A stretch of 60,273 nucleotides of DNA, from positions 1 through 60,273 of IMG/VR virus record IMGVR_UViG_2778261541_000006, one strand, 5' to 3'. Numbering within the stretch: position 1 is the first letter of the stretch; each line of letters opens with the position of its first letter. The DNA is from a virus. Its lineage: Duplodnaviria > Heunggongvirae > Uroviricota > Caudoviricetes. The position numbers were made by a program, and so were the translations under genes. This document shows positions 3,950-15,566 of the stretch, one piece after another. A model generated the notes under the pieces. It made no database searches. It was not told the origin of the DNA and saw only the letters and a program-made list of their open reading frames with translations.

Positions 3950-4311
3950 CACTATCAGCTATTGAGTTAATGGATCTCAGCGATAAGTTGGATGCTCTGA
4001 TGTCCAAAGCGGCTACCGCGAGTGGCATGGAGTTGCTGGATATCAGCGATGAAATTGACCAGATCATGCAACAGATGGGGTACGGCGCGTCCGGCGGCGG
4101 TAGTGGCGAGGAAAAACAACCTTCGGTACATGATGGTGTGCCAAAACTGGTTGCTGATTTCCTGGCTGATAAATTCGTCGATCAGAGCACCGATGCATTT
4201 ATCGGTACGTTGCAGGACTTGAGTCAATATGTTGGCACATACATCGATCTGGACCAGGTTAAACAGCACACGGCGGCATGGATAGCCGCCAACATTAAAG
4301 AGGCAGCATAA
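3946..4311 (+). CDS. ddrA: DdrA
   Basis: 121-aa acidic ORF overlapping darA stop by 4 nt; position matches P1 ddrA. Confidence 0.45.
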   Translation: MTLSAIELMDLSDKLDALMSKAATASGMELLDISDEIDQIMQQMGYGASGGGSGEEKQPSVHDGVPKLVADFLADKFVDQSTDAFIGTLQDLSQYVGTYIDLDQVKQHTAAWIAANIKEAA

Positions 4312-4323
4312 GGCGTAACAGGG

Positions 4324-7311
4324 ATGAGCTTAAGCGATCAGGTGGTGATGGCCACCAGCATAGAAACGCTGATCGAGCTGCTAAAAAACCTGCCCGATTA
4401 CGGGCGGGTTTCGTATGTGGTGACAGCGAAGGGAGACGAGGTAAAAACAGCGTTTGATATCGTCGATGCCTCAGCTCTTTTGGTATCCAATACTCTGGAC
4501 GGGAAAATTAATCCGGACTATCCCCAGGAACTTCAGCCGCGCGACCGGACCCGTGCATCCAGCCTTCTTCAGGTTAACCAGATATCCAAGGATTTGCGGC
4601 CTGCTCAGCTTACCGACTCCGGTTTATCCAGCCATGGAGCGCCGATAATTGGTGAGGACAATGCCGTTGAGTCAGGTAATGGACGGACTATGGGAATCAT
4701 TAAAGCCTATCAGGACGGCAATGCGGATCGGTATCGGGAGTATCTGATTGAACATGCGACCGAATTCGGCATACGGCCTGAAAAGGTTGAATCAATGACG
4801 GCTCCGGTACTGGTGCGCCGCCGGTTAACGAAGGTTGACCGTGTTCAGTTTGCCAAGGACTCAAATATTTCTGATCTCCAGGAAATGGCAGCCAGTGAAA
4901 AGGCTTTTGTTGATGCCGACAGCATAACACCGGCGATGATAGCGTTGTTTAACCCGTCAGAAAGCGGAGATCTGCTTAGCCGCAGTAATGACGCGTTTAT
5001 TCGCGGATTCATGACGCAAGTTGGTGCCACACAGGCTGCTGGCCTTGTAACGGAAGATGGGCGACCAACACGGCAACTTGTAGACCGTATACAAAACGCG
5101 ATCTTTGCCAAGGCATATAAGGATGCGCGCCTGGTAAGGATGGTTGCAGAAGAACCTGATCCGGATATGCGTAATGTTCTGACGGCGCTTAATGCGGCAG
5201 CCAATGATTTTGTCCAGATGCAGGCTTTATCAGGAGAAGCGCACAAGCAGGCTGTGACAACTATTGTTGATGGCATTGAGACAGCGGATAGCCTCGATAA
5301 AAAGGCGCTGGCGGCATTGAAAGATGCGGTAGACCTGGTAAGGCAATCGAAGGAGTCAGGCCAGCATATTACCGATGTTATTGCTCAGGGGGATATGTTC
5401 AGCGAAACGGCCCCGGAAGTGAAAGCACTCGCGTTGTTCATCGTCGCGAATAACCGTAGCGCGAAGCGTATGGCCACCGCCTTTAAGTTGATGGCTCAAC
5501 GTATCAATGATGAGTTACAGCACCAGGGCCAGGCGCTGGGGGATATGTTTGGCGGCGGCGATGTGTCGTTACAGGATATCCTTCGCCAGGTGTCTCAGGA
5601 ACTGGAATACGAAGGCATGCAAGGGATATCCGGCGGTCTTTTCGAGTCCGTTTCCGGCGGTAGTTACAACGGTGTTGCTCCGTATACCAGTTTGCTATTA
5701 CATCGGGCATCCGGCATCAAAGACATTATTCATCTGATCAGGCTGCTTTCCCGCACAGATCCCCAGGATGAACAGCTTGTACAAGTGCTTGCGCATTTTG
5801 TTCGAATGCCTGTTGCCGACGTGAAAAAATGGTGCCGATTATTCGGTATCAGCAATTCGTTACTTCGCGGCTTGTTAAATCACGCATCCTCCCTTGGGCG
5901 CGATGGCTTTGACGAGATAGCGCAGGCGATAAAAAACGGAGATATGCCACCAGCTATTGACTGGTTTTCCATTCGCCCAACCAGGGTGAAAGCATTCCTT
6001 AGCGCGGCGCATTCGGCATCACCATTGGCAGAAATGGTTCAGAGGTTGTCGCTCATATTCACAGACCATACCGCGTTGGGTGATCTGACTCTGGACGAGA
6101 TGAAAGAAGCCTCCATTCAGTGGGCCGATCAACAAAATGAGGTTAACTCAGACTTCTTGCCAGCATTCAGGAAGGCCGTTAGTAAAGCGGATGATGCCCG
6201 TGGAATTCTGAAGGCATTTAAGGCATTGCAAAGTCGTGTTAATAAACATGTCGGTGATATCGATGGGGTAACGGCGGAAGGCCGGGATATCCTTAAAGAG
6301 CACGGCATAACGCCAGAGTTTATTGATGAGATCAGGACTGATATGCAGCGTGAGGTCGTATCGTCCCTGCAAATCGTAGCCAGAGCGTTGGCGGATGCTA
6401 ATCCGAAGAGTGCGGCCATTGTTAACCGGGTTATTGGTGATATTGAAGCATCGGAGGGCATGGGGGCGCTGAAACTCTTCCTTTCGCGAGCGTTTAATCC
6501 TAACGGCAATATTCTCCCTGGCATTATTGGTGAGGCTAAAAAGTATGTCAGTGAAGAAGAACTTGAGCATATTGACCAACTACTTAAGCGATTCTCATAT
6601 AACCCGCAGACACGCTGGCAAATGAATCAGCAAAGTATGGGGTCGGTCTATGAGAAAGTGTTATCTGCCATGAACAGTGCGATCGCAAACTCATCCGTAT
6701 CTGAAGAAAAAGCTCTTGAGTGGGCCGACTCTTTTATCACAGAAGAAGTGGAAGAAGTCCGCGCTGGACAGAATGGTGGGATAGACCTGCGCAAGGAACT
6801 TGCTGATATTTATCGCCTGACCGGCGGGAAAATCTCGACCTTATCAAAGGTAGTTCACCACCAGGGAAGGGCATATGCAAATCTTAATGGTGTTGTTGCT
6901 GTCAATTTGAACGATGAAAATGCAAGTGCACTGTGGCACGAGCTGGGTCATCATCTTGAGTACAGTAACCCTGGTTTGTTAGAGAAAGCCCGGTCATTCC
7001 TGAAGGCCAATGTTGAAGGGGATAAGCCATCTTTCGTCAATATCGGTGGGCGTGGCAAGCCTGAATGGTGCTTCAGATCTCGATTGAGTAATATTTATAT
7101 GGCGAAGGTATACCCGCCAGCCTCAGTAAGTAACACCGGGAAAATTCGGCAGAAATCACCGACTATTTCCAAAACGTCAGCAACGGAAGTATTCTCTATG
7201 GCTCTTCAGTTGTATCATGACAAAGAGGCCGCTGCCGCATCACTGATGAATGGTGACGGATTGCTGGAACTGTTATTAGGTGTGGCAAAGGAGCTAAATA
7301 ATGCAGATTAA
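4324..7311 (+). CDS. ddrB: DdrB
   Basis: 995-aa ORF downstream of ddrA in the dar operon; size matches recalled P1 DdrB. Confidence 0.55.
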   Translation: MSLSDQVVMATSIETLIELLKNLPDYGRVSYVVTAKGDEVKTAFDIVDASALLVSNTLDGKINPDYPQELQPRDRTRASSLLQVNQISKDLRPAQLTDSGLSSHGAPIIGEDNAVESGNGRTMGIIKAYQDGNADRYREYLIEHATEFGIRPEKVESMTAPVLVRRRLTKVDRVQFAKDSNISDLQEMAASEKAFVDADSITPAMIALFNPSESGDLLSRSNDAFIRGFMTQVGATQAAGLVTEDGRPTRQLVDRIQNAIFAKAYKDARLVRMVAEEPDPDMRNVLTALNAAANDFVQMQALSGEAHKQAVTTIVDGIETADSLDKKALAALKDAVDLVRQSKESGQHITDVIAQGDMFSETAPEVKALALFIVANNRSAKRMATAFKLMAQRINDELQHQGQALGDMFGGGDVSLQDILRQVSQELEYEGMQGISGGLFESVSGGSYNGVAPYTSLLLHRASGIKDIIHLIRLLSRTDPQDEQLVQVLAHFVRMPVADVKKWCRLFGISNSLLRGLLNHASSLGRDGFDEIAQAIKNGDMPPAIDWFSIRPTRVKAFLSAAHSASPLAEMVQRLSLIFTDHTALGDLTLDEMKEASIQWADQQNEVNSDFLPAFRKAVSKADDARGILKAFKALQSRVNKHVGDIDGVTAEGRDILKEHGITPEFIDEIRTDMQREVVSSLQIVARALADANPKSAAIVNRVIGDIEASEGMGALKLFLSRAFNPNGNILPGIIGEAKKYVSEEELEHIDQLLKRFSYNPQTRWQMNQQSMGSVYEKVLSAMNSAIANSSVSEEKALEWADSFITEEVEEVRAGQNGGIDLRKELADIYRLTGGKISTLSKVVHHQGRAYANLNGVVAVNLNDENASALWHELGHHLEYSNPGLLEKARSFLKANVEGDKPSFVNIGGRGKPEWCFRSRLSNIYMAKVYPPASVSNTGKIRQKSPTISKTSATEVFSMALQLYHDKEAAAASLMNGDGLLELLLGVAKELNNAD

Positions 7312-7609
7312 AATCGCAGCGCCATTAGGTGGAGATGCCATTATCGAATTTGATGATAATGAAGAAGTTTCCGGGCGTTTAAGCATTATCTCCGGTGACA
7401 TTACCGAGGACATGATCGCTGAAGCCATAGCTGGAGCAAATCCCAATAGCTATATGGGATTCGTTAACACCCTTGATGCTCCCGCAAGTGATGTTCTCCG
7501 AACGCTGCATCTTTACGCTGGCTGGTTTGTTGATTGGCCAGCAGTAGATGGTGGCGATGAGGACGACGACGATGATTTGGGTGATCATGTGGATCAGTTT
7601 GTATATTAG
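7301..7609 (+). CDS. acidic hypothetical protein (iddB-like position)
   Basis: 102-aa ORF overlapping ddrB stop, aspartate-rich C-terminus (DGGDEDDDDDLGD). Confidence 0.35.
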   Translation: MQIKIAAPLGGDAIIEFDDNEEVSGRLSIISGDITEDMIAEAIAGANPNSYMGFVNTLDAPASDVLRTLHLYAGWFVDWPAVDGGDEDDDDDLGDHVDQFVY

Positions 7610-7815
7610 ATACTAACAGATCGTCTATGTGGCTAGAATCGTTCGAGTTTAGCGATTAAACGGAAGTTCTGGTCGATTATGATTAGTGCATATTCATGCA
7701 CAGGCACACAAAATCTGGAGATATTGATCAGCGTTTATGTATAGTTTGTAATATAAAATCGCCTTGAACGGAGTTTGTGCGTTATGAGAATCAATCTTAA
7801 CTCTGGAGTAAGATA

Positions 7816-8184
7816 GTGGACGCTTTGTCTGAGGTTTTCGTTAATAATTGGCTTCCTGGTATCTGCACATTTTTTTTAGGTATCTTTTATTCTAATATTG
7901 TTGAAAAAAAGAAACTTAAACAGAAGTTAAAGAATGATATTCTTGAGATATTCATTCCTGTATTTAACGCCGGAAATGAAATCACCATTGAAATTGCTGA
8001 GAATGCTTACAGGAATATGAATGGTACGTTTCAGTTGTACAAGAGAATATATCCAGGTATGTTCAACAAAGAAGCAGAGCGTGAGCTAGACCGACTACTA
8101 AAAGACGGTTTCCTCATAAATGGAGAGGTTAATAAGCATTACTTTGAACCAACTAATATTGAGAGCCTGATTAAAAGATTATAA
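7816..8184 (+). CDS. hypothetical small protein with N-terminal hydrophobic segment
   Basis: 122-aa ORF in a strongly AT-rich stretch (about 7610-8400); N-terminal hydrophobic helix (WLPGICTFFLGIFYSNIV). Confidence 0.4.
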   Translation: MDALSEVFVNNWLPGICTFFLGIFYSNIVEKKKLKQKLKNDILEIFIPVFNAGNEITIEIAENAYRNMNGTFQLYKRIYPGMFNKEAERELDRLLKDGFLINGEVNKHYFEPTNIESLIKRL

Positions 8185-8390
8185 CTCATTTACCACAGTT
8201 AAAACCCCGCTTCATTGCGGGGTTTGCATCATGCGCCAATAAAAGCTATTTATTCTGCGTCAAGTTGTAACATCTAATCCACTATTATATATCGTTATGT
8301 TTGGCATATAACAGATAATTAAATGAATTATATCCAGATCTAATTTTATGCGGTTCTGGAACCCGGCTGCGTACTATATAATAGAAAAAA

Positions 8391-9746
8391 TCAGAGTCTA
8401 TCAAAAATAGAGCCTTTTCTCGGTACAAATATTTTCTCATACAGTCGAGTAGCGTAATCATCTGTCATGCCTGAAACATAGTCGCAAATGACGCGCATTT
8501 TTTTATCATCACCTTTTGCTTCCTCTTGATTATATTTCTTTCGAGTTTCTGTCGGGAGAAAACGTATTGGGTCATTTGCCAGTACATTGAATAGTTCCAC
8601 AATCAGTTTCTGACCTTTGAACTCTAATAGTTGGACGTTTTCGTGCTGAATAACTTTGTTCCTAACCAGCTCAAAAATGGCTTTACGTAACTCTTCTACC
8701 GCGGCAGGAAGTGCCACTTTATAGCGTAAAATTTTACTTTTGAAATCAGAGTTCTGCACTTCAAGCTTAACGCTAGTGATCATCAGATGAACAAGTGTCC
8801 CTATGCACTCCTTGCGTAGATAACTTTCGCCGAACAGTTTTTCAGCTACATCATCGGCTTTTAGATTAAACGAGTCGCATTGGCAAGCTGCAAATAAATG
8901 GGATTTGTCCTCGAAGTGCTCCTCCCACATTTTTTTGTCGATCATCTTCAGAGAAATTGCGTCTTCAAGATCATGGAGTGAGTAGGATATCTCATCAGCC
9001 AAGTCCATAATCGTTGTATCCAGTGCTTTATATATTGTTTCCTTGTGCTTATTCAACGCGGTAGTTTTTACCGTTTTGAATAACTTAACATCATCACTAT
9101 CAAAAGGTTGGAGTGCGAATCTAACAGTGTTCTCCTCAGAGTCCAGGTAACATTTCGGGGGCTTAAATTCGGATGATTTAAACAACCACTCATTGCTTCT
9201 TGGCTGTAACTGGCTGTAAGCCCTCTCATTGACGACCTCTGAATAGCTTGCTGGATATTTCAGTACGCCTAAAATAAGTCTACGGGTGGGATCCAGCCCA
9301 TTGGTTTCGGTGTACTTATCCAGTTTGGAGAGTATACGCAGTGTCTGCCCGTTACCTTCAAAGCCGCCATAGGATCTCATGCAGTAGTTTAGTGCGACCT
9401 CACCACCATGACCGAAGGGGGGATGTCCTATATCATGAGCAAGGCAGATAGCCTGCATCAGGCTTGGGTCAGGTAAGAATTTACCCCCCTCATCTGTATC
9501 GCGCTTAGACAACTGAGACAAGATACCGCCGCCAATTTGCGCTACTTCCATAGAGTGAGTTAGCCGCGTACGGTAGAAATCGCTTTCGCCCAATCCCAAC
9601 ACCTGCGTCTTCGATTGTAATCTCCTAAAAGCGGAAGAGTGGATTAACCGGGAAAGATCACGTTCATACTCCGACCTTATCTCATTCGGGCGGGTGGTAT
9701 TGTACCCTTGACGCTCATACCAAGTATTTTCTTTGCAGTGTGTCAT
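8391..9746 (-). CDS. dGTP triphosphohydrolase-like HD-domain protein (Dgt family)
   Basis: Translation has the HD phosphohydrolase signature (RLTHSMEVAQIGG ... LAHDIGHPPFGHGGE) and an N-terminal RLIHSSAFRRLQSKTQV motif typical of Dgt-like dGTPases; start placed at Met34 of the track ORF (8391..9845), which has an AAAGGA RBS. Confidence 0.7.
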   Translation of the reverse strand: MTHCKENTWYERQGYNTTRPNEIRSEYERDLSRLIHSSAFRRLQSKTQVLGLGESDFYRTRLTHSMEVAQIGGGILSQLSKRDTDEGGKFLPDPSLMQAICLAHDIGHPPFGHGGEVALNYCMRSYGGFEGNGQTLRILSKLDKYTETNGLDPTRRLILGVLKYPASYSEVVNERAYSQLQPRSNEWLFKSSEFKPPKCYLDSEENTVRFALQPFDSDDVKLFKTVKTTALNKHKETIYKALDTTIMDLADEISYSLHDLEDAISLKMIDKKMWEEHFEDKSHLFAACQCDSFNLKADDVAEKLFGESYLRKECIGTLVHLMITSVKLEVQNSDFKSKILRYKVALPAAVEELRKAIFELVRNKVIQHENVQLLEFKGQKLIVELFNVLANDPIRFLPTETRKKYNQEEAKGDDKKMRVICDYVSGMTDDYATRLYEKIFVPRKGSIFDRL

Positions 9747-9924
9747 ACGTGTTCCTTTGGGCAGGATAGAGCAAGTCGCCTGCTTAATTGCTGAAGAAAG
9801 AAATACAAATTTGTAACGCTGTGGATCTTCTTTATGCGTCCACAATCAGTAAATATTGGATACTTGCAAGGTGCGCGAAACACTAAAGATTGTCAATTAA
9901 TAATTAACACCTCTTATAGTTACT

Positions 9925-9955
9925 AGAAATAAAAATCCCCTGTATTAACAGGGGC
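9925..9955 (-). terminator. rho-independent terminator downstream of ssb
   Basis: On the minus strand: hairpin CCCCTGTTAATACAGGGG followed by a T-rich run; lies between ssb and the dGTPase gene. Confidence 0.4.
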
Positions 9956-9994
9956 CTGTGTATGAACTATTTACAAATAACTCACAAGTTAACT

Positions 9995-10483
9995 CTAAAA
10001 CGGAATATCGTCGTCAAAGTCCATTGGAGGTTCGTTATTGGCGCTGCTCTGAGGTTTGCCGCCACCGCTGTATTGCTGGTGGTTTTGAGGTTGGTTTGAT
10101 TGCCCCCAGCCATTTGAGGACTGTGAATCGTCGCGGCGGGCGCCGATCATTTGCATAGTTCCGCCCTGGCTGACGATAATTTCCGTCGTGTAACGTTCTA
10201 CACCGGCGTCATCTGTCCACTTACGGGTTTTAAGTTTCCCTTCGATGTAGACCTGAGAACCTTTTCGTAAATACTCACTCGCAATTTCAGCAAGTTTCCC
10301 GAACAAAACGACTCTATGCCATTCTGTTTGCTCTTTCTGTTGGCCCGTTTGCTTGTCGCGCCATGATTCATTTGTTGCGATGCTTAGTCTTCCGACCGCT
10401 CCGCCATTTGGTATATACCTGATATCTGGGTCTTGCCCCAGGGTACCAATCAGGATGACTTTGTTTACACCGCGTTGTGCCAC
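9995..10483 (-). CDS. ssb: single-stranded DNA-binding protein
   Basis: Strong identity to the bacterial SSB fold ([16 protein letters not shown] ... acidic tail [11 protein letters not shown]); probable GTG start giving MAQRGVNKV, the track ORF extends to 10504. Confidence 0.85.
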
Positions 10484-10651
10484 TTTTCTTACCCAATAAA
10501 ACAAATTAATTAGAGCAATAATGTATATCTTTGAAACGTAGCTAACAAGTGATTTGCATTATCCTGTGCCTTCTAAAGGGATCGAGTCAGTCGGTATTGG
10601 CTGTGAATGGGTGTTTGTCCTGGAGCGTAAAAATTCGCTTATGAGGTCTTT

Positions 10652-11208
10652 ATGAAGGGAAAAACAGCCGCAGGAGGCGGTGCAATTTGCGCTATCGCGG
10701 TGATGATTACCATCGTGATGGGTAATGGCAATGTGCGAACCAACCAGGCGGGGCTTGAGCTTATCGGAAACGCTGAAGGTTGCCGACGTGATCCATACAT
10801 GTGCCCGGCGGGGTATGGACTGATGGGATCGGTAATACACACGGGGTAACGCCGGGTGTGCGAAAAACCGACCAGCAAATCGCCGCTGATTGGGAAAAGA
10901 ATATCCTGATCGCTGAACGCTGTATTAATCAGCACTTCCGGGGCAAAGACATGCCCGATAATGCCTTCAGTGCAATGACAAGCGCGGCATTCAATATGGG
11001 ATGCAATAGCTTACGGACCTACTACAGCAAAGCGCGAGGCATGCGAGTAGAAACGTCCATCCACAAGTGGGCGCAGAAAGAGGAATGGGTGAATATGTGT
11101 AACCATCTCCCTGATTTCGTGAACAGTAACGGCGTGCCCCTGCGAGGTTTAAAGATTCGCCGTGAAAAAGAACGCCAGCTTTGCCTGACGGGGCTGATCA
11201 ATGAATAA
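10652..11208 (+). pseudogene. lyz: SAR endolysin Lyz, interrupted by a -1 frameshift
   Basis: Two ORFs in different frames (10652..10849 and 10801..11208) together reproduce the P1 Lyz sequence as I recall it (SAR domain, Cys13, Glu42, Cys44, Cys51); the frame breaks inside a G run near 10809-10813. Confidence 0.7.
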
Positions 11209-11455
11209 ACTCCGGCAGCTCCGCCGACTTTCGACAATGAAGTTATCGCTGGCGGCGATAGTTTTCGACTCGATTTTCATGGCGGTATATGTGCTCAATG
11301 AGACGTGGCCACTGGAACCGCTATTATATGCCGGGCTTCGGCTGTGCCTGACATTTTTGAGCATGGCTGCGAGATTGATGCAGCAGAAAGAAACCGCTTC
11401 AGATTGTCCACGCCGCGCGGTGCGCAAATATATGGCACGCAGGCGAAGGCGATAA
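11201..11455 (+). CDS. small membrane protein downstream of lyz (LydD-like position)
   Basis: 84-aa ORF with a hydrophobic segment and basic C-terminus, overlapping the lyz stop. Confidence 0.35.
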   Translation: MNKLRQLRRLSTMKLSLAAIVFDSIFMAVYVLNETWPLEPLLYAGLRLCLTFLSMAARLMQQKETASDCPRRAVRKYMARRRRR

Positions 11456-11468
11456 TAGTTAACGATAA

Positions 11469-11496
11469 CCCCGGCAGCCGCCGGGGTTATTTTTGG
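11469..11496 (+). terminator. rho-independent terminator after the lyz cluster
   Basis: Hairpin CCCCGGC-AGCC-GCCGGGG followed by TTATTTTTGG. Confidence 0.5.
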
Positions 11497-11499
11497 TGG

Positions 11500-12835
11500 T
11501 TATCCGGTGCGCCGTAAAATCCCGTCCTTCAGGGAGGGGATATAAGGCGTGGTTTTCCACCTAACTGTTTTTGTTTAAAATAGTGGGATGAAGCGACTAC
11601 AAGCATTTAAATTCCAGTTAAGACCCGGTGGTCAACAGGAGCGTCAAATGAGGCTCTTTGCCGGAGCTTGTCGTTTCGTTTTCAATCGTGCACTGGCACT
11701 TCAGAATGAGAATTATGAGGCCGGGAATAAATACATCCCTTACACGAAAATGGCTTCCTGGTTGGTTGAGTGGAAAAAAGACACTGAAACCGAATGGCTT
11801 AAAGATTCTCCCTCACAGCCATTGCAGCAGTCACTGAAAGACCTTGAGCGGGCCTACAAAAATTTCTTCCAGAAGCGGGCGGCTTTTCCCCGATTCAAAA
11901 AGCGGGGACAGAATGATGCATTCCGCTACCCGCAGGGTGTTAAGCTCGACCAGGAAAACAGCCGTATTTTTCTGCCGAAACTTGGCTGGATGCGCTACCG
12001 TAACAGCCGGCAGGTCACGGGGATTGTGAAAAATGTCACTGTCAGCCAGTCCTGCGGTAAATGGTACATCAGTATTCAGACAGAAAGTGAAGTATCCACT
12101 CCTGTTCACCCTTCAGCATCAATGGTCGGACTGGATGCTGGCGTGGCCAGGCTCGCCACGCTGTCAGATGGCACAGTCTTTGAGCCTGTAAACAGTTTCC
12201 AGAAAAACCAGAAAAAGCTGGCGAGACTTCAGCGCCAGTTAAGCCGCAAGGTCAGATTCAGCAACAACTGGCAGAAGCAGAAACGCAAAATACAGCAACT
12301 GCACTCCCGTATCGCAAATATCCGCAGAGACTACCTTCATAAAGTCACAACGATCATCAGCAAAAACCACGCAATGATTGTCATTGAGGATTTGAAGGTT
12401 AAACACATGTCAAAGTCAGCGGCGGGTACGATAAGTCAGCCGGGTCGCAATGTCCGGGCAAAATCAGGTTTAAACCGTTCGATACTGGATCAGGGCTGGT
12501 ATGAAATGCGCCGCCAGCTTGAGTACAAGCAGCTCTGGCGTGGCGGTCAGGTGCTTGCTGTTCCGCCAGCGTACACAAGCCAGCGTTGCGCGTGCTGTGG
12601 TCATACAGCGAAAGAAAATCGCCTGTCACAAAGTAAATTCAGATGCCAGGTATGTGGATATACAGCGAACGCCGATGTAAACGGCGCTCGTAACATTTTA
12701 GCGGCGGGGCACGCCGTTCTTGCCTGTGGAGGGATGGTGCAGTCAGGCCGCCCGTTGAAGCAGGAACCCACCGAAATGATTCAGGCGACAGCCTGAACGT
12801 AGCAGGAATCCACGCCCGTCAGGGCGTGGAGGGTG

Positions 12836-12860
<25 letters not shown>
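11500..12860 (+). mobile_element. IS200/IS605-family element (IS609/InsQ-like), tnpB only
   Basis: Contains a full-length TnpB ORF; no tnpA (Y1 HUH transposase) ORF adjacent; imperfect palindrome CCACGCCCGTCAGGGCGTGG just 3' of tnpB is typical of a right-end hairpin; boundaries approximate. Confidence 0.5.
11588..12796 (+). CDS. tnpB: TnpB (InsQ-like) RuvC/zinc-finger nuclease of IS200/IS605 family
   Basis: 402-aa translation is near-identical, from memory, to E. coli InsQ (IS609 OrfB); C-terminal CxxC...CxxC zinc finger (CACCGH...CQVCGY). Confidence 0.85.

Positions 12861-15566
<2,706 letters not shown>

What the first reader, a model, noticed from the sequence alone, without database searches (positions are those of the whole stretch)
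7610..9960. AT-rich island with a Dgt-like dGTPase and a small membrane ORF between the dar operon and ssb
Seen in sequence: a 451-aa HD-domain protein with Dgt-family motifs (RLTHSMEVAQIGG, HDIGHPPFGHGGE) on the minus strand, with its own RBS and a terminator hairpin (about 9925-9955) separating it from ssb; upstream lies an AT-rich 122-aa ORF with an N-terminal hydrophobic helix, after about 200 bp of AT-rich non-coding DNA. Established: dGTPases of this family deplete dGTP as a single-gene antiphage defence. Inference: this is a second defence cargo island; the small ORF could be an unrelated accessory or a partner.
Basis: partly seen in the sequence, partly recalled or inferred. Interest (0 to 1): 0.65.

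Follow-up and report, generated by a model that had tools for sequence, protein, structure and literature searches.

The report
Known antiphage dGTPase cassette in P1-like plasmid
A P1-like phage-plasmid carries, in a swappable slot between two backbone genes, an already catalogued anti-phage enzyme that destroys the DNA building block dGTP, next to a small uncharacterised gene that turns up beside many different defence genes in other mobile elements.

Summary
Window 7610-9994 is a 2.39-kb, 40% GC cassette that starts at the hxr stop codon and ends at the ssb stop codon. It holds a 451-aa HD-domain dGTPase (9746..8391, minus strand) and a 122-aa ORF (7816-8184, plus strand).

The dGTPase is not housekeeping Dgt. 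It passes NCBIfam "antiphage_dGTPase" (571 bits, cutoff 400) and PADLOC dGTPase (5e-149). It is 80% identical to the E. coli dGTPase type tested by Tal et al. and about 58-60% identical to Shewanella SpdGTPase (PDB 9P8W). All catalytic residues are kept.

About 10% of P1-like plasmids carry the cassette; others hold a porin, isaA-type genes or IS1 in the same slot. RefSeq already names this protein "anti-phage deoxyguanosine triphosphatase", and a 2025 preprint lists dGTPase among the defence systems of E. coli P1-like phage-plasmids. The main finding is therefore already known.

ORF122 is not an obligate partner: it is absent from 80 other dGTPase loci, and its homologues elsewhere lack a dGTPase. 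It is a narrow, strongly conserved orphan family. Its members repeatedly lie beside unrelated defence genes (PD-T4-7, bSEFIR, PDC-S08, GmrSD-like in the P2 hotspot, restriction-modification (RM) systems). That association is the only new lead.

The parts
7301..7609 (+). hxr-like 102-aa backbone gene; its stop codon marks the left edge of the cassette
   Evidence: phrog_2292. Annotated as Hxr in SJ46. Alignment A2 shows all cargo variants diverging exactly at the stop codon.
7610..7815 (.). AT-rich (36.9% GC) non-coding leader of ORF122, holding one weak sigma-70-like site at 7716-7745 (+)
   Evidence: The promoter match is 9/12, and the region has no more such matches than shuffled sequence, so it is not evidence of function. 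An IS1 replaces this stretch in four related plasmids.
7816..8184 (+). ORF122: small helical protein with an N-terminal hydrophobic helix, from an orphan family (phrog_26730), function unknown
   Evidence: dN/dS is 0.09. No Pfam, NCBIfam or PADLOC hit.
8202..8225 (.). GC-rich hairpin (AAACCCCGC-TTCATT-GCGGGGTTT) between the two convergent genes; probable bidirectional terminator
   Evidence: Read from the sequence and from the fold of 8185-8390, which has z = -3.3. A TTTT run follows it on the minus strand.
8391..9746 (-). 451-aa anti-phage-type dGTP triphosphohydrolase (HD + HD_assoc). Catalytic residues H64, H104-D105, H113/E116 and D251 are present.
   Evidence: Pfam, PADLOC dGTPase 5e-149, NCBIfam NF041026 at 571 bits against cutoff 400, PDB 9P8W at 3e-158. 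80% identical to the Ec G177-type dGTPase. Residue positions.
9747..9936 (-). Upstream region of the dGTPase, with the AAGGA ribosome-binding site at 9757-9753. No convincing sigma-70 promoter and no C1 operator.
   Evidence: RNA fold z = -0.6, so no special structure.
9937..9954 (-). Intrinsic terminator (CCCCTGT-TAAT-ACAGGGG + ATTTTTATTT) just after ssb; it insulates the dGTPase from the C1-controlled ssb transcript
   Evidence: It lies within the cassette-specific DNA. Other cargo types have an isaA-like gene directly after ssb, with no terminator.
9995..10483 (-). ssb backbone gene; its stop codon marks the right edge of the cassette
   Evidence: Pfam SSB 1e-39; alignment A3.
10503..10519 (-). 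C1 repressor operator Ossb (1 mismatch to consensus); the nearest C1 operator, and it lies outside the cassette
   Evidence: corresponding annotation in P1 and P7.

Best explanation
The cassette at 7610-9994 is accessory cargo in a variable slot of P1-like phage-plasmids, bounded by the hxr stop codon and the ssb stop codon. Its main gene encodes a single-gene anti-phage dGTPase of the Tal et al. 2022 family.

Proposed mechanism: an HD-domain enzyme, probably hexameric like SpdGTPase, hydrolyses dGTP to deoxyguanosine and triphosphate when a foreign lytic phage infects the lysogen. The incoming phage's DNA polymerase is starved, which protects the host population and with it the resident P1-like prophage.

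- Shown here: family membership, intact catalytic residues, purifying selection, accessory and patchy distribution, exact cassette boundaries, and separation from the ssb transcript by a terminator.
- Taken from the literature on homologues: dGTP depletion, phage protection, and the link between triggering and phage tampering with host RNA polymerase.
- Inferred only: expression in the lysogen, the trigger for this allele, and compatibility with P1's own lytic replication.

ORF122 is an independent co-cargo gene, not a required partner.
For: - Family scores: NCBIfam antiphage_dGTPase 571 bits against cutoff 400, while housekeeping Dgt models fail their cutoffs. PADLOC dGTPase 5e-149. Pfam HD + HD_assoc.
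- Tested relatives: the best PDB match is 9P8W at 3e-158. That entry is SpdGTPase, a hexamer that is sufficient on its own for dGTP hydrolysis. Identity to it is about 58-60%, above the 45% level at which Tal et al. found defence-island association. Identity is 80% to the chromosomal E. coli dGTPase, whose first 399 nt are 99% identical to the Ec G177 gene that protected E. coli in Tal et al..
- Catalytic residues H64, HD104-105, H113/E116 and D251 are present.
- dN/dS is 0.12.
- Patchy distribution: 52 of 534 matching plasmids, 1 of 20 phage records, 64 of 5426 E. coli genomes, all at least 98.6% identical.
- Other cargo in the same slot: porin in P7, isaA-like gene with or without a 364-aa protein or a DUF2829 protein, and IS1 in P1.
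- Boundaries fall exactly at the two stop codons.
- RefSeq names the identical protein WP_000148486.1 anti-phage dGTPase. dGTPase is reported among defence systems of E. coli P1-like phage-plasmids.
Against: - No experiment exists on this allele. Only an 80% identical homologue was tested, and that test used arabinose-induced expression.
- No convincing sigma-70 promoter was found upstream, so expression from the prophage is unproven.
- SpdGTPase is constitutively active in vitro. How toxicity, and interference with P1's own lytic DNA synthesis, are avoided is unexplained.
- The near-identity of all copies may reflect recent spread rather than long-term selection in P1.
Confidence: 0.85

Rival explanations
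1. ORF122 and the dGTPase form a two-gene system. The small membrane protein would sense infection or restrain the enzyme, analogous to CloB restraining CloA in Clover.
For: The two genes are always together in P1-like elements: the 52 PLSDB records with ORF122 are P1-like plasmids of the set that also carries the dGTPase, and the same holds for 10 IMG/VR contigs. Regulated dGTPase systems with a partner gene do exist.
Against: - The genes are convergent, with a terminator hairpin between them.
- None of 80 dGTPase loci at 43-80% identity in other species has an ORF122 relative within 5 kb.
- Chromosomal E. coli dGTPase loci lack it.
- ORF122 homologues in Salmonella, Yersinia, Vibrio, Marinomonas, Rheinheimera, Enterobacter and P2-like prophages have no dGTPase nearby.
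- ORF122 has no nucleotidyltransferase or other domain hit.
- Sp- and Ec-dGTPases protect as single genes.
Confidence: 0.07
2. The dGTPase serves the phage-plasmid itself rather than anti-phage defence, for example by balancing the dNTP pool, avoiding mutations, or acting against the host or rival plasmids. In that case it would be a housekeeping-type Dgt analogue.
For: Bacterial dGTPases have other proposed roles. No promoter or trigger has been identified here. The gene sits next to the replication-related gene ssb.
Against: It fails every housekeeping Dgt equivalog cutoff and passes the anti-phage model. It is present in only about 10% of P1-like elements, and unrelated cargo such as a porin replaces it in others, so it is dispensable for P1 biology. 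Its close homologue protects against phages.
Confidence: 0.06
3. The cassette is an inert or decaying passenger with no current function.
For: - Occasional disrupted copies exist: a group II intron inside the island in CP057937.1; frameshifted or truncated ORF122 in CP042617.1, CP148548.1 and NZ_CP087567.1; and a frameshifted dGTPase in one IMG/VR contig.
- No promoter was detected.
Against: The reading frames are intact here and in the large majority of copies. dN/dS is 0.12 and 0.09 against diverged homologues. All catalytic residues are kept.
Confidence: 0.03

Closest known systems
Anti-phage dGTPase of Tal et al. 2022 (Sp-dGTPase of Shewanella putrefaciens CN-32, PDB 9P8W; Ec-dGTPase of E. 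coli G177); DefenseFinder/PADLOC 'dGTPase', NCBIfam NF041026
   Same: Same HD + HD_assoc architecture, same catalytic residues and a single-gene organisation. About 58-60% identical to Sp and 80% to the Ec G177 type. Carried on a mobile element among variable cargo.
   Different: This allele is on a P1-like phage-plasmid, between hxr and ssb, rather than in a chromosomal island beside type I RM systems. It has not itself been tested. Its regulation inside a temperate phage that must itself replicate lytically is unknown.
Housekeeping E. coli Dgt (PDB 4X9E/6OIY; NF003429)
   Same: HD-domain dGTP triphosphohydrolase chemistry.
   Different: Only the N-terminal ~110 residues align (E = 6e-24). 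It scores 143 bits against a cutoff of 405. Dgt is chromosomal, core and not associated with defence islands.
Clover system (CloA dGTPase + CloB nucleotidyltransferase)
   Same: A defence dGTPase with a neighbouring gene.
   Different: CloA is a more distant relative (9P8S-V, E about 1e-23) and is octameric. Its partner is an NTase that makes p3diT. ORF122 has no NTase motif, and no family or domain model matches it. It is convergent to the dGTPase and does not co-occur with dGTPases elsewhere.
Defence hotspots of temperate phages and satellites (P2 gpA-gpQ locus, P4 cos-proximal locus; Rousset et al. 2022, PMC9122126)
   Same: A fixed slot between conserved backbone genes in which unrelated cargo cassettes, including defence genes, replace one another.
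   Different: This slot is hxr-ssb in P1-like phage-plasmids. Of its alternative cargos (isaA-like protein, 364-aa protein, DUF2829 protein and porin), the three non-porin proteins had no PADLOC hit (the porin was not scanned), so on present evidence the slot is a general accessory slot rather than a dedicated defence hotspot.

Membership tests
Anti-phage dGTPase (Tal et al. 2022; NCBIfam NF041026; PADLOC dGTPase) | HD phosphohydrolase domain followed by the HD-associated C-terminal domain, in a protein of about 400-460 aa | tested here: met
   Pfam HD at 5.5e-08 and HD_assoc at 7.5e-21 in a 451-aa protein.
Anti-phage dGTPase (Tal et al. 2022; NCBIfam NF041026; PADLOC dGTPase) | Score above the curated cutoff of the family model, full length | tested here: met
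   NF041026 scores 571.4 bits against cutoff 400, covering profile positions 1-425 of 425. PADLOC PDLC02374 scores 5.1e-149.
Anti-phage dGTPase (Tal et al. 2022; NCBIfam NF041026; PADLOC dGTPase) | At least 45% identity to Sp-dGTPase (the defence-associated subset in Tal et al.) | tested here: met
   260 identical positions over 436-452 aligned columns, about 58-60%, against 9P8W (SpdGTPase). The threshold is quoted.
Anti-phage dGTPase (Tal et al. 2022; NCBIfam NF041026; PADLOC dGTPase) | Metal-binding H...HD...D residues and the H/E catalytic dyad | tested here: met
   H64, H104-D105, H113/E116 and D251 are present. D105 aligns with Sp D101, whose mutation to alanine abolished defence.
Anti-phage dGTPase (Tal et al. 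2022; NCBIfam NF041026; PADLOC dGTPase) | Located in variable or defence regions of genomes or mobile elements | tested here: met
   It is an accessory cassette in about 10% of P1-like plasmids, at a slot with alternative cargo.
Anti-phage dGTPase (Tal et al. 2022; NCBIfam NF041026; PADLOC dGTPase) | Hydrolyses dGTP, depletes dGTP on infection and reduces phage plating | not testable with these tools
   Shown only for homologues: Sp-dGTPase, and Ec G177, which is 80% identical to this protein.
Housekeeping Dgt (E. coli dgt; NCBIfam NF003429 and other Dgt equivalogs) | Score above the equivalog cutoff | tested here: not met
   NF003429 scores 142.8 bits against cutoff 405. All the other Dgt equivalogs also fall below their cutoffs.
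Clover (CloA-CloB) | Adjacent Pol-beta-type nucleotidyltransferase partner (CloB) | tested here: not met
   The only neighbour inside the cassette is ORF122, which has no Pfam, NCBIfam or PADLOC hit and is convergent. CloA structures match only weakly, E about 1e-23.
ORF122 family as a dedicated dGTPase partner | Co-occurrence with dGTPase genes across lineages | tested here: not met
   0 of 80 dGTPase loci have an ORF122 relative within 5 kb. No non-P1 ORF122 context has a dGTPase.

The most novel reading that the evidence does not exclude
ORF122 (7816-8184) may be a member of an undescribed, independently mobile anti-phage or exclusion gene family: a small membrane-anchored helical protein. 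The P1 cassette would then carry two separate defence genes.

The family is tiny, with 14 clusters among 1.84 billion representative proteins. It is strongly conserved and absent from PADLOC v2. Of the 13 or so independent contexts read, at least 8 put it within a few genes of a different known or candidate defence gene:
- the dGTPase in the P1-like cassette;
- a PD-T4-7 homologue (9e-35);
- bSEFIR (4.5e-125) plus an AbiV-like gene in Yersinia;
- PDC-S08 (1e-117) in Marinomonas;
- a GmrSD/NsnA-like gene in the gpQ-gpA hotspot of a P2-like prophage;
- a type III RM system plus a RelA/SpoT protein;
- Mrr and HNH nucleases in Vibrio;
- a type IIG RM system in Salmonella.
Probability: 0.3. Interest if true: 0.5.

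Novelty: already known. Interest (0 to 1): 0.22.

Why it matters
The dGTPase adds nothing new in kind. It is one more documented example of a temperate phage-plasmid carrying nucleotide-depletion immunity that protects its lysogen against competing phages. Its presence bears on phage-therapy host range and on competition between P1-like elements and other phages in E. coli.

Two modest points go beyond the annotation.
- The hxr-ssb interval of P1-like elements is a precise cassette-exchange slot, bounded by the two stop codons, with at least six alternative contents.
- The small co-cargo ORF belongs to an orphan family whose genomic neighbourhoods resemble those used to discover new defence genes. 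It is a cheap candidate for a plaque-assay test.

A further open and testable question is how a phage that must replicate its own DNA tolerates carrying a dGTP-destroying enzyme.

Tried and rejected
- Hidden dGTPase remnant: about 1.5 kb of uncalled DNA follows the ORF122 homologues in Salmonella and Enterobacter. tblastn found no dGTPase there. The Salmonella gap holds broken ORFs of 134 and 201 aa that I read as an IS transposase remnant, though no domain search was run on them; the Enterobacter gap holds nothing recognisable.
- Transposition signatures: no flanking direct or inverted repeats around the cassette.
- C1 control: no C1 operator inside the cassette, only Ossb outside it.
- RNA regulator, as in the type III toxin-antitoxin system AvcID: Rfam gave no credible hit in 7000-13200. 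The dGTPase upstream region folds no better than shuffled sequence, z = -0.6. The z = -3.3 of the inter-gene spacer includes the terminator hairpin at 8202-8225 and a second long stem (about 8282-8384) that was not examined further.
- Sigma-70 promoter for the dGTPase: none at 9 of 12 matches or better. A perfect TTGACA at 9897-9892 has no usable -10 element.
- Function of ORF122 by fold: the AlphaFold2 model (pLDDT 74, all helical) has no Foldseek hit with E <= 0.001 in PDB or BFVD. The afdb50 library was unavailable.
- Distant homologues of ORF122: a profile search of 1.84 billion representatives returned only its own small family.
- Defence annotation of the alternative slot cargos (364-aa, 262-aa and DUF2829 proteins): no PADLOC hits.
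- Literature search by the two RefSeq accessions: nothing found.
Full report
**Observation.** The window is a P1-like phage-plasmid. DdrB (Pfam ddrB-ParB, 4324-7311) and an hxr-like gene (7301-7609) lie to the left of the finding. P1-type ssb (9995-10483, minus strand), with its C1 operator at 10503-10519, lies to the right. Fifteen C1-operator matches occur across the window, against 0.3 expected by chance.

- A 451-aa ORF runs from ATG 9746 to the stop at 8391 on the minus strand. It carries RLTHSMEVAQIGG at residues 61-73 and HDIGHPPFGHGGE at 104-116, with an AAGGA ribosome-binding site 6 nt upstream.
- An intrinsic terminator lies at 9954..9937 on the minus strand, directly after ssb.
- A 122-aa GTG-initiated ORF runs 7816-8184 at 33.6% GC, preceded by 206 bp of 36.9% GC spacer.
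- A GC-rich hairpin at 8202-8225 sits between the two convergent genes.
- The cassette is 39.9% GC, against 48% for the window and about 50% for ddrB and ssb.

**What the dGTPase is.** The protein has Pfam HD and HD_assoc domains. It matches the PADLOC dGTPase model at 5e-149. It scores 571 bits on NCBIfam NF041026 "antiphage_dGTPase" against a cutoff of 400, and fails every housekeeping Dgt equivalog; E. coli-type NF003429 scores 143 bits against a cutoff of 405.

Its best solved relative is PDB 9P8W (E = 3e-158). The Clover preprint identifies that entry as the hexameric Shewanella putrefaciens SpdGTPase, which alone hydrolyses dGTP rapidly in vitro. Identity to it is about 58-60%. Tal et al. 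found that homologues at 45% identity or more to Sp-dGTPase are defence-island associated (58 of 110), against 10% for more distant ones.

The protein is 80% identical to a chromosomal E. coli dGTPase (strain ABWA45). The first 399 nt of that gene are 99% identical to the E. coli G177 dGTPase that Tal et al. synthesised and found protective. The metal ligands and catalytic dyad are all present: H64, H104-D105, H113/E116 and D251. D105 corresponds to Sp D101, whose mutation to alanine abolished defence. dN/dS against the 80% identical homologues is 0.12.

**Accessory status and the slot.** I ran megablast with 7200-10600.
- Against phage records, only 1 of 20 P1-like phages (vB_EcoM-673R5) has the cassette. 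The rest match only the flanks.
- In PLSDB, 534 plasmids match the flanks, about 25 of them through a conjugative-plasmid ssb only. 52 carry the whole cassette at 98.6% identity or more.
- 64 of 5426 complete E. coli genomes carry it, nearly all on plasmids of about 95-100 kb. Eight genomes carry the 80% chromosomal version, without ORF122.

Alignments of six or seven cargo variants show that similarity breaks exactly at the hxr stop codon and resumes exactly at the ssb stop codon. The slot holds different contents in other elements:
- a porin (nmpC/ompC) in P7 and many plasmids;
- an isaA-like 262-aa gene alone;
- the isaA-like gene with a 364-aa protein;
- the isaA-like gene with a DUF2829 protein;
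- isaA plus IS1 in P1.

None of the alternative proteins I scanned has a PADLOC hit, so the slot is a general accessory slot rather than a dedicated defence hotspot. No flanking repeats mark the cassette, which fits exchange by recombination in the conserved flanks. In the isaA-type variants the cargo follows ssb directly. Here a terminator and about 190 bp separate ssb from the dGTPase, and the cassette has no C1 operator. I could not find a convincing sigma-70 promoter for the dGTPase.

**Already known.** RefSeq annotates the identical protein (WP_000148486.1) as "anti-phage deoxyguanosine triphosphatase" in dozens of these plasmids. PHROGs holds both genes as families of unknown function. 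A 2025 preprint that screened 1592 P1/D6 phage-plasmids with DefenseFinder states that E. coli P1-like elements commonly carry CapRel or dGTPase systems.

**Mechanism.** This part is by homology and is not shown for this allele. The enzyme hydrolyses dGTP to deoxyguanosine and triphosphate during infection, which starves phage DNA synthesis. T7 escape mutants map to gp5.7 and gp0.7, which modify host RNA polymerase, suggesting that activation is linked to tampering with host transcription. How a P1-like element reconciles this enzyme with its own lytic replication is not addressed by any data I found.

**ORF122.** This is a real gene.
- 34 homologues were found, 54-85% identical across Escherichia, Salmonella, Enterobacter, Yersinia, Vibrio, Marinomonas and Rheinheimera. 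They share an invariant KLKNDILEIFIPVFN-G core.
- dN/dS is 0.09.
- The family is very narrow, with only 14 clusters among 1.84 billion representative proteins.
- It has no Pfam, NCBIfam or PADLOC hit.
- The AlphaFold2 model (pLDDT 74) is all helical, with a long N-terminal helix containing the hydrophobic stretch. No significant fold match was found in PDB or BFVD.

It is not an obligate partner of the dGTPase.
- None of 80 dGTPase loci (43-80% identity) from other species has a relative within 5 kb.
- None of the non-P1 ORF122 contexts has a dGTPase.
- On plasmids it occurs only in the P1-like cassette.

Its neighbours elsewhere are informative:
- a PD-T4-7 homologue, convergent to it, in an integrase-flanked island (L118, 9e-35);
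- bSEFIR directly upstream (4.5e-125) plus an AbiV-like gene in Yersinia (L106, L123, L124);
- the PADLOC candidate PDC-S08, a 5'-nucleotidase, directly upstream in Marinomonas (1e-117);
- a GmrSD_N/NsnA-like gene in the portal-to-gpA interval of P2-like prophages (L120-122), which is the published P2 defence hotspot (PMC9122126);
- a type III RM system plus a RelA/SpoT protein (L108);
- Mrr_cat and an HNH restriction enzyme in Vibrio (L019);
- an Eco57I-type enzyme in Salmonella (L004);
- Phd/ParE (L105).

Orientation and spacing vary, so ORF122 behaves as an independent gene that travels through defence hotspots. This is guilt by association from a dozen hand-read contexts, not a statistical test. 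A recent study found 6 of 8 unknown-function P4 hotspot loci to be protective, which sets a reasonable prior.

**Verdict.** The main item is an already annotated and already reported member of a known single-gene defence family, so interest is low. Three things remain:
- the precise definition of the hxr-ssb cassette slot;
- the untested question of self-compatibility;
- the ORF122 family as a candidate new defence-associated gene.

Noticed in passing
window 7816-8184; loci L021, L106, L108, L118, L120-L124, L019: The ORF122 orphan family lies next to a different known or candidate defence gene in most independent contexts: PD-T4-7, bSEFIR, PDC-S08, a GmrSD-like gene in the P2 gpQ-gpA hotspot, type III RM plus RelA/SpoT, and Mrr/HNH. 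It is absent from PADLOC v2.
   Followed up: partly
window 11588-12796 (+), with 12723-12766: A 402-aa TnpB-type (IS200/IS605-family) ORF is inserted between the lysis genes and pro. Related plasmid pKFu022_2 has a TnpB at a different site, upstream of ddrB. A sub-threshold RAGATH-18 match (28 bits, E = 0.04) overlaps the 3' end of the ORF and could be the element's guide-RNA region.
   Followed up: no
plasmid CP057937.1 (hit H48/H94), equivalent to window 7200-10600: One copy of the cassette is split by a group II intron (ltrA reverse transcriptase/maturase), which stretches the matched interval from 3.4 to 5.4 kb.
   Followed up: no
L014 (pTET-GZEC065) 4288-5000, equivalent to window 7610-7815: In four related plasmids an IS1 abuts the ORF122 start codon and replaces the AT-rich leader and the upstream dar genes. 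ORF122 there has lost its native upstream region while both cassette genes stay intact.
   Followed up: no
L015 642-1736 (alternative cargo at the same slot): A 364-aa protein that occupies the hxr-ssb slot in many P1-like plasmids shows weak similarity to terminase large-subunit families (phrog_2, 3.6e-09) and has no PADLOC hit. Its function is unknown.
   Followed up: no
L118 1-336 and L120 5449-5784: A conserved 111-aa acidic protein (MNNIPP/SMPQLGIYVSKIDPTLRITVTDVD...) directly precedes the ORF122 homologue in two different mobile-element contexts, which may indicate a small two-gene module there. P1-like elements have hxr at that position instead.
   Followed up: no
L013 (E. coli ABWA45 chromosome) 8005-13743: The chromosomal Ec G177-type dGTPase sits beside a DNA adenine methylase, an 8-oxoguanine glycosylase-like gene and 7-cyano-7-deazaguanine synthase/PfkB-kinase genes. 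This could be a DNA-modification (deazaguanine-type) island.
   Followed up: no
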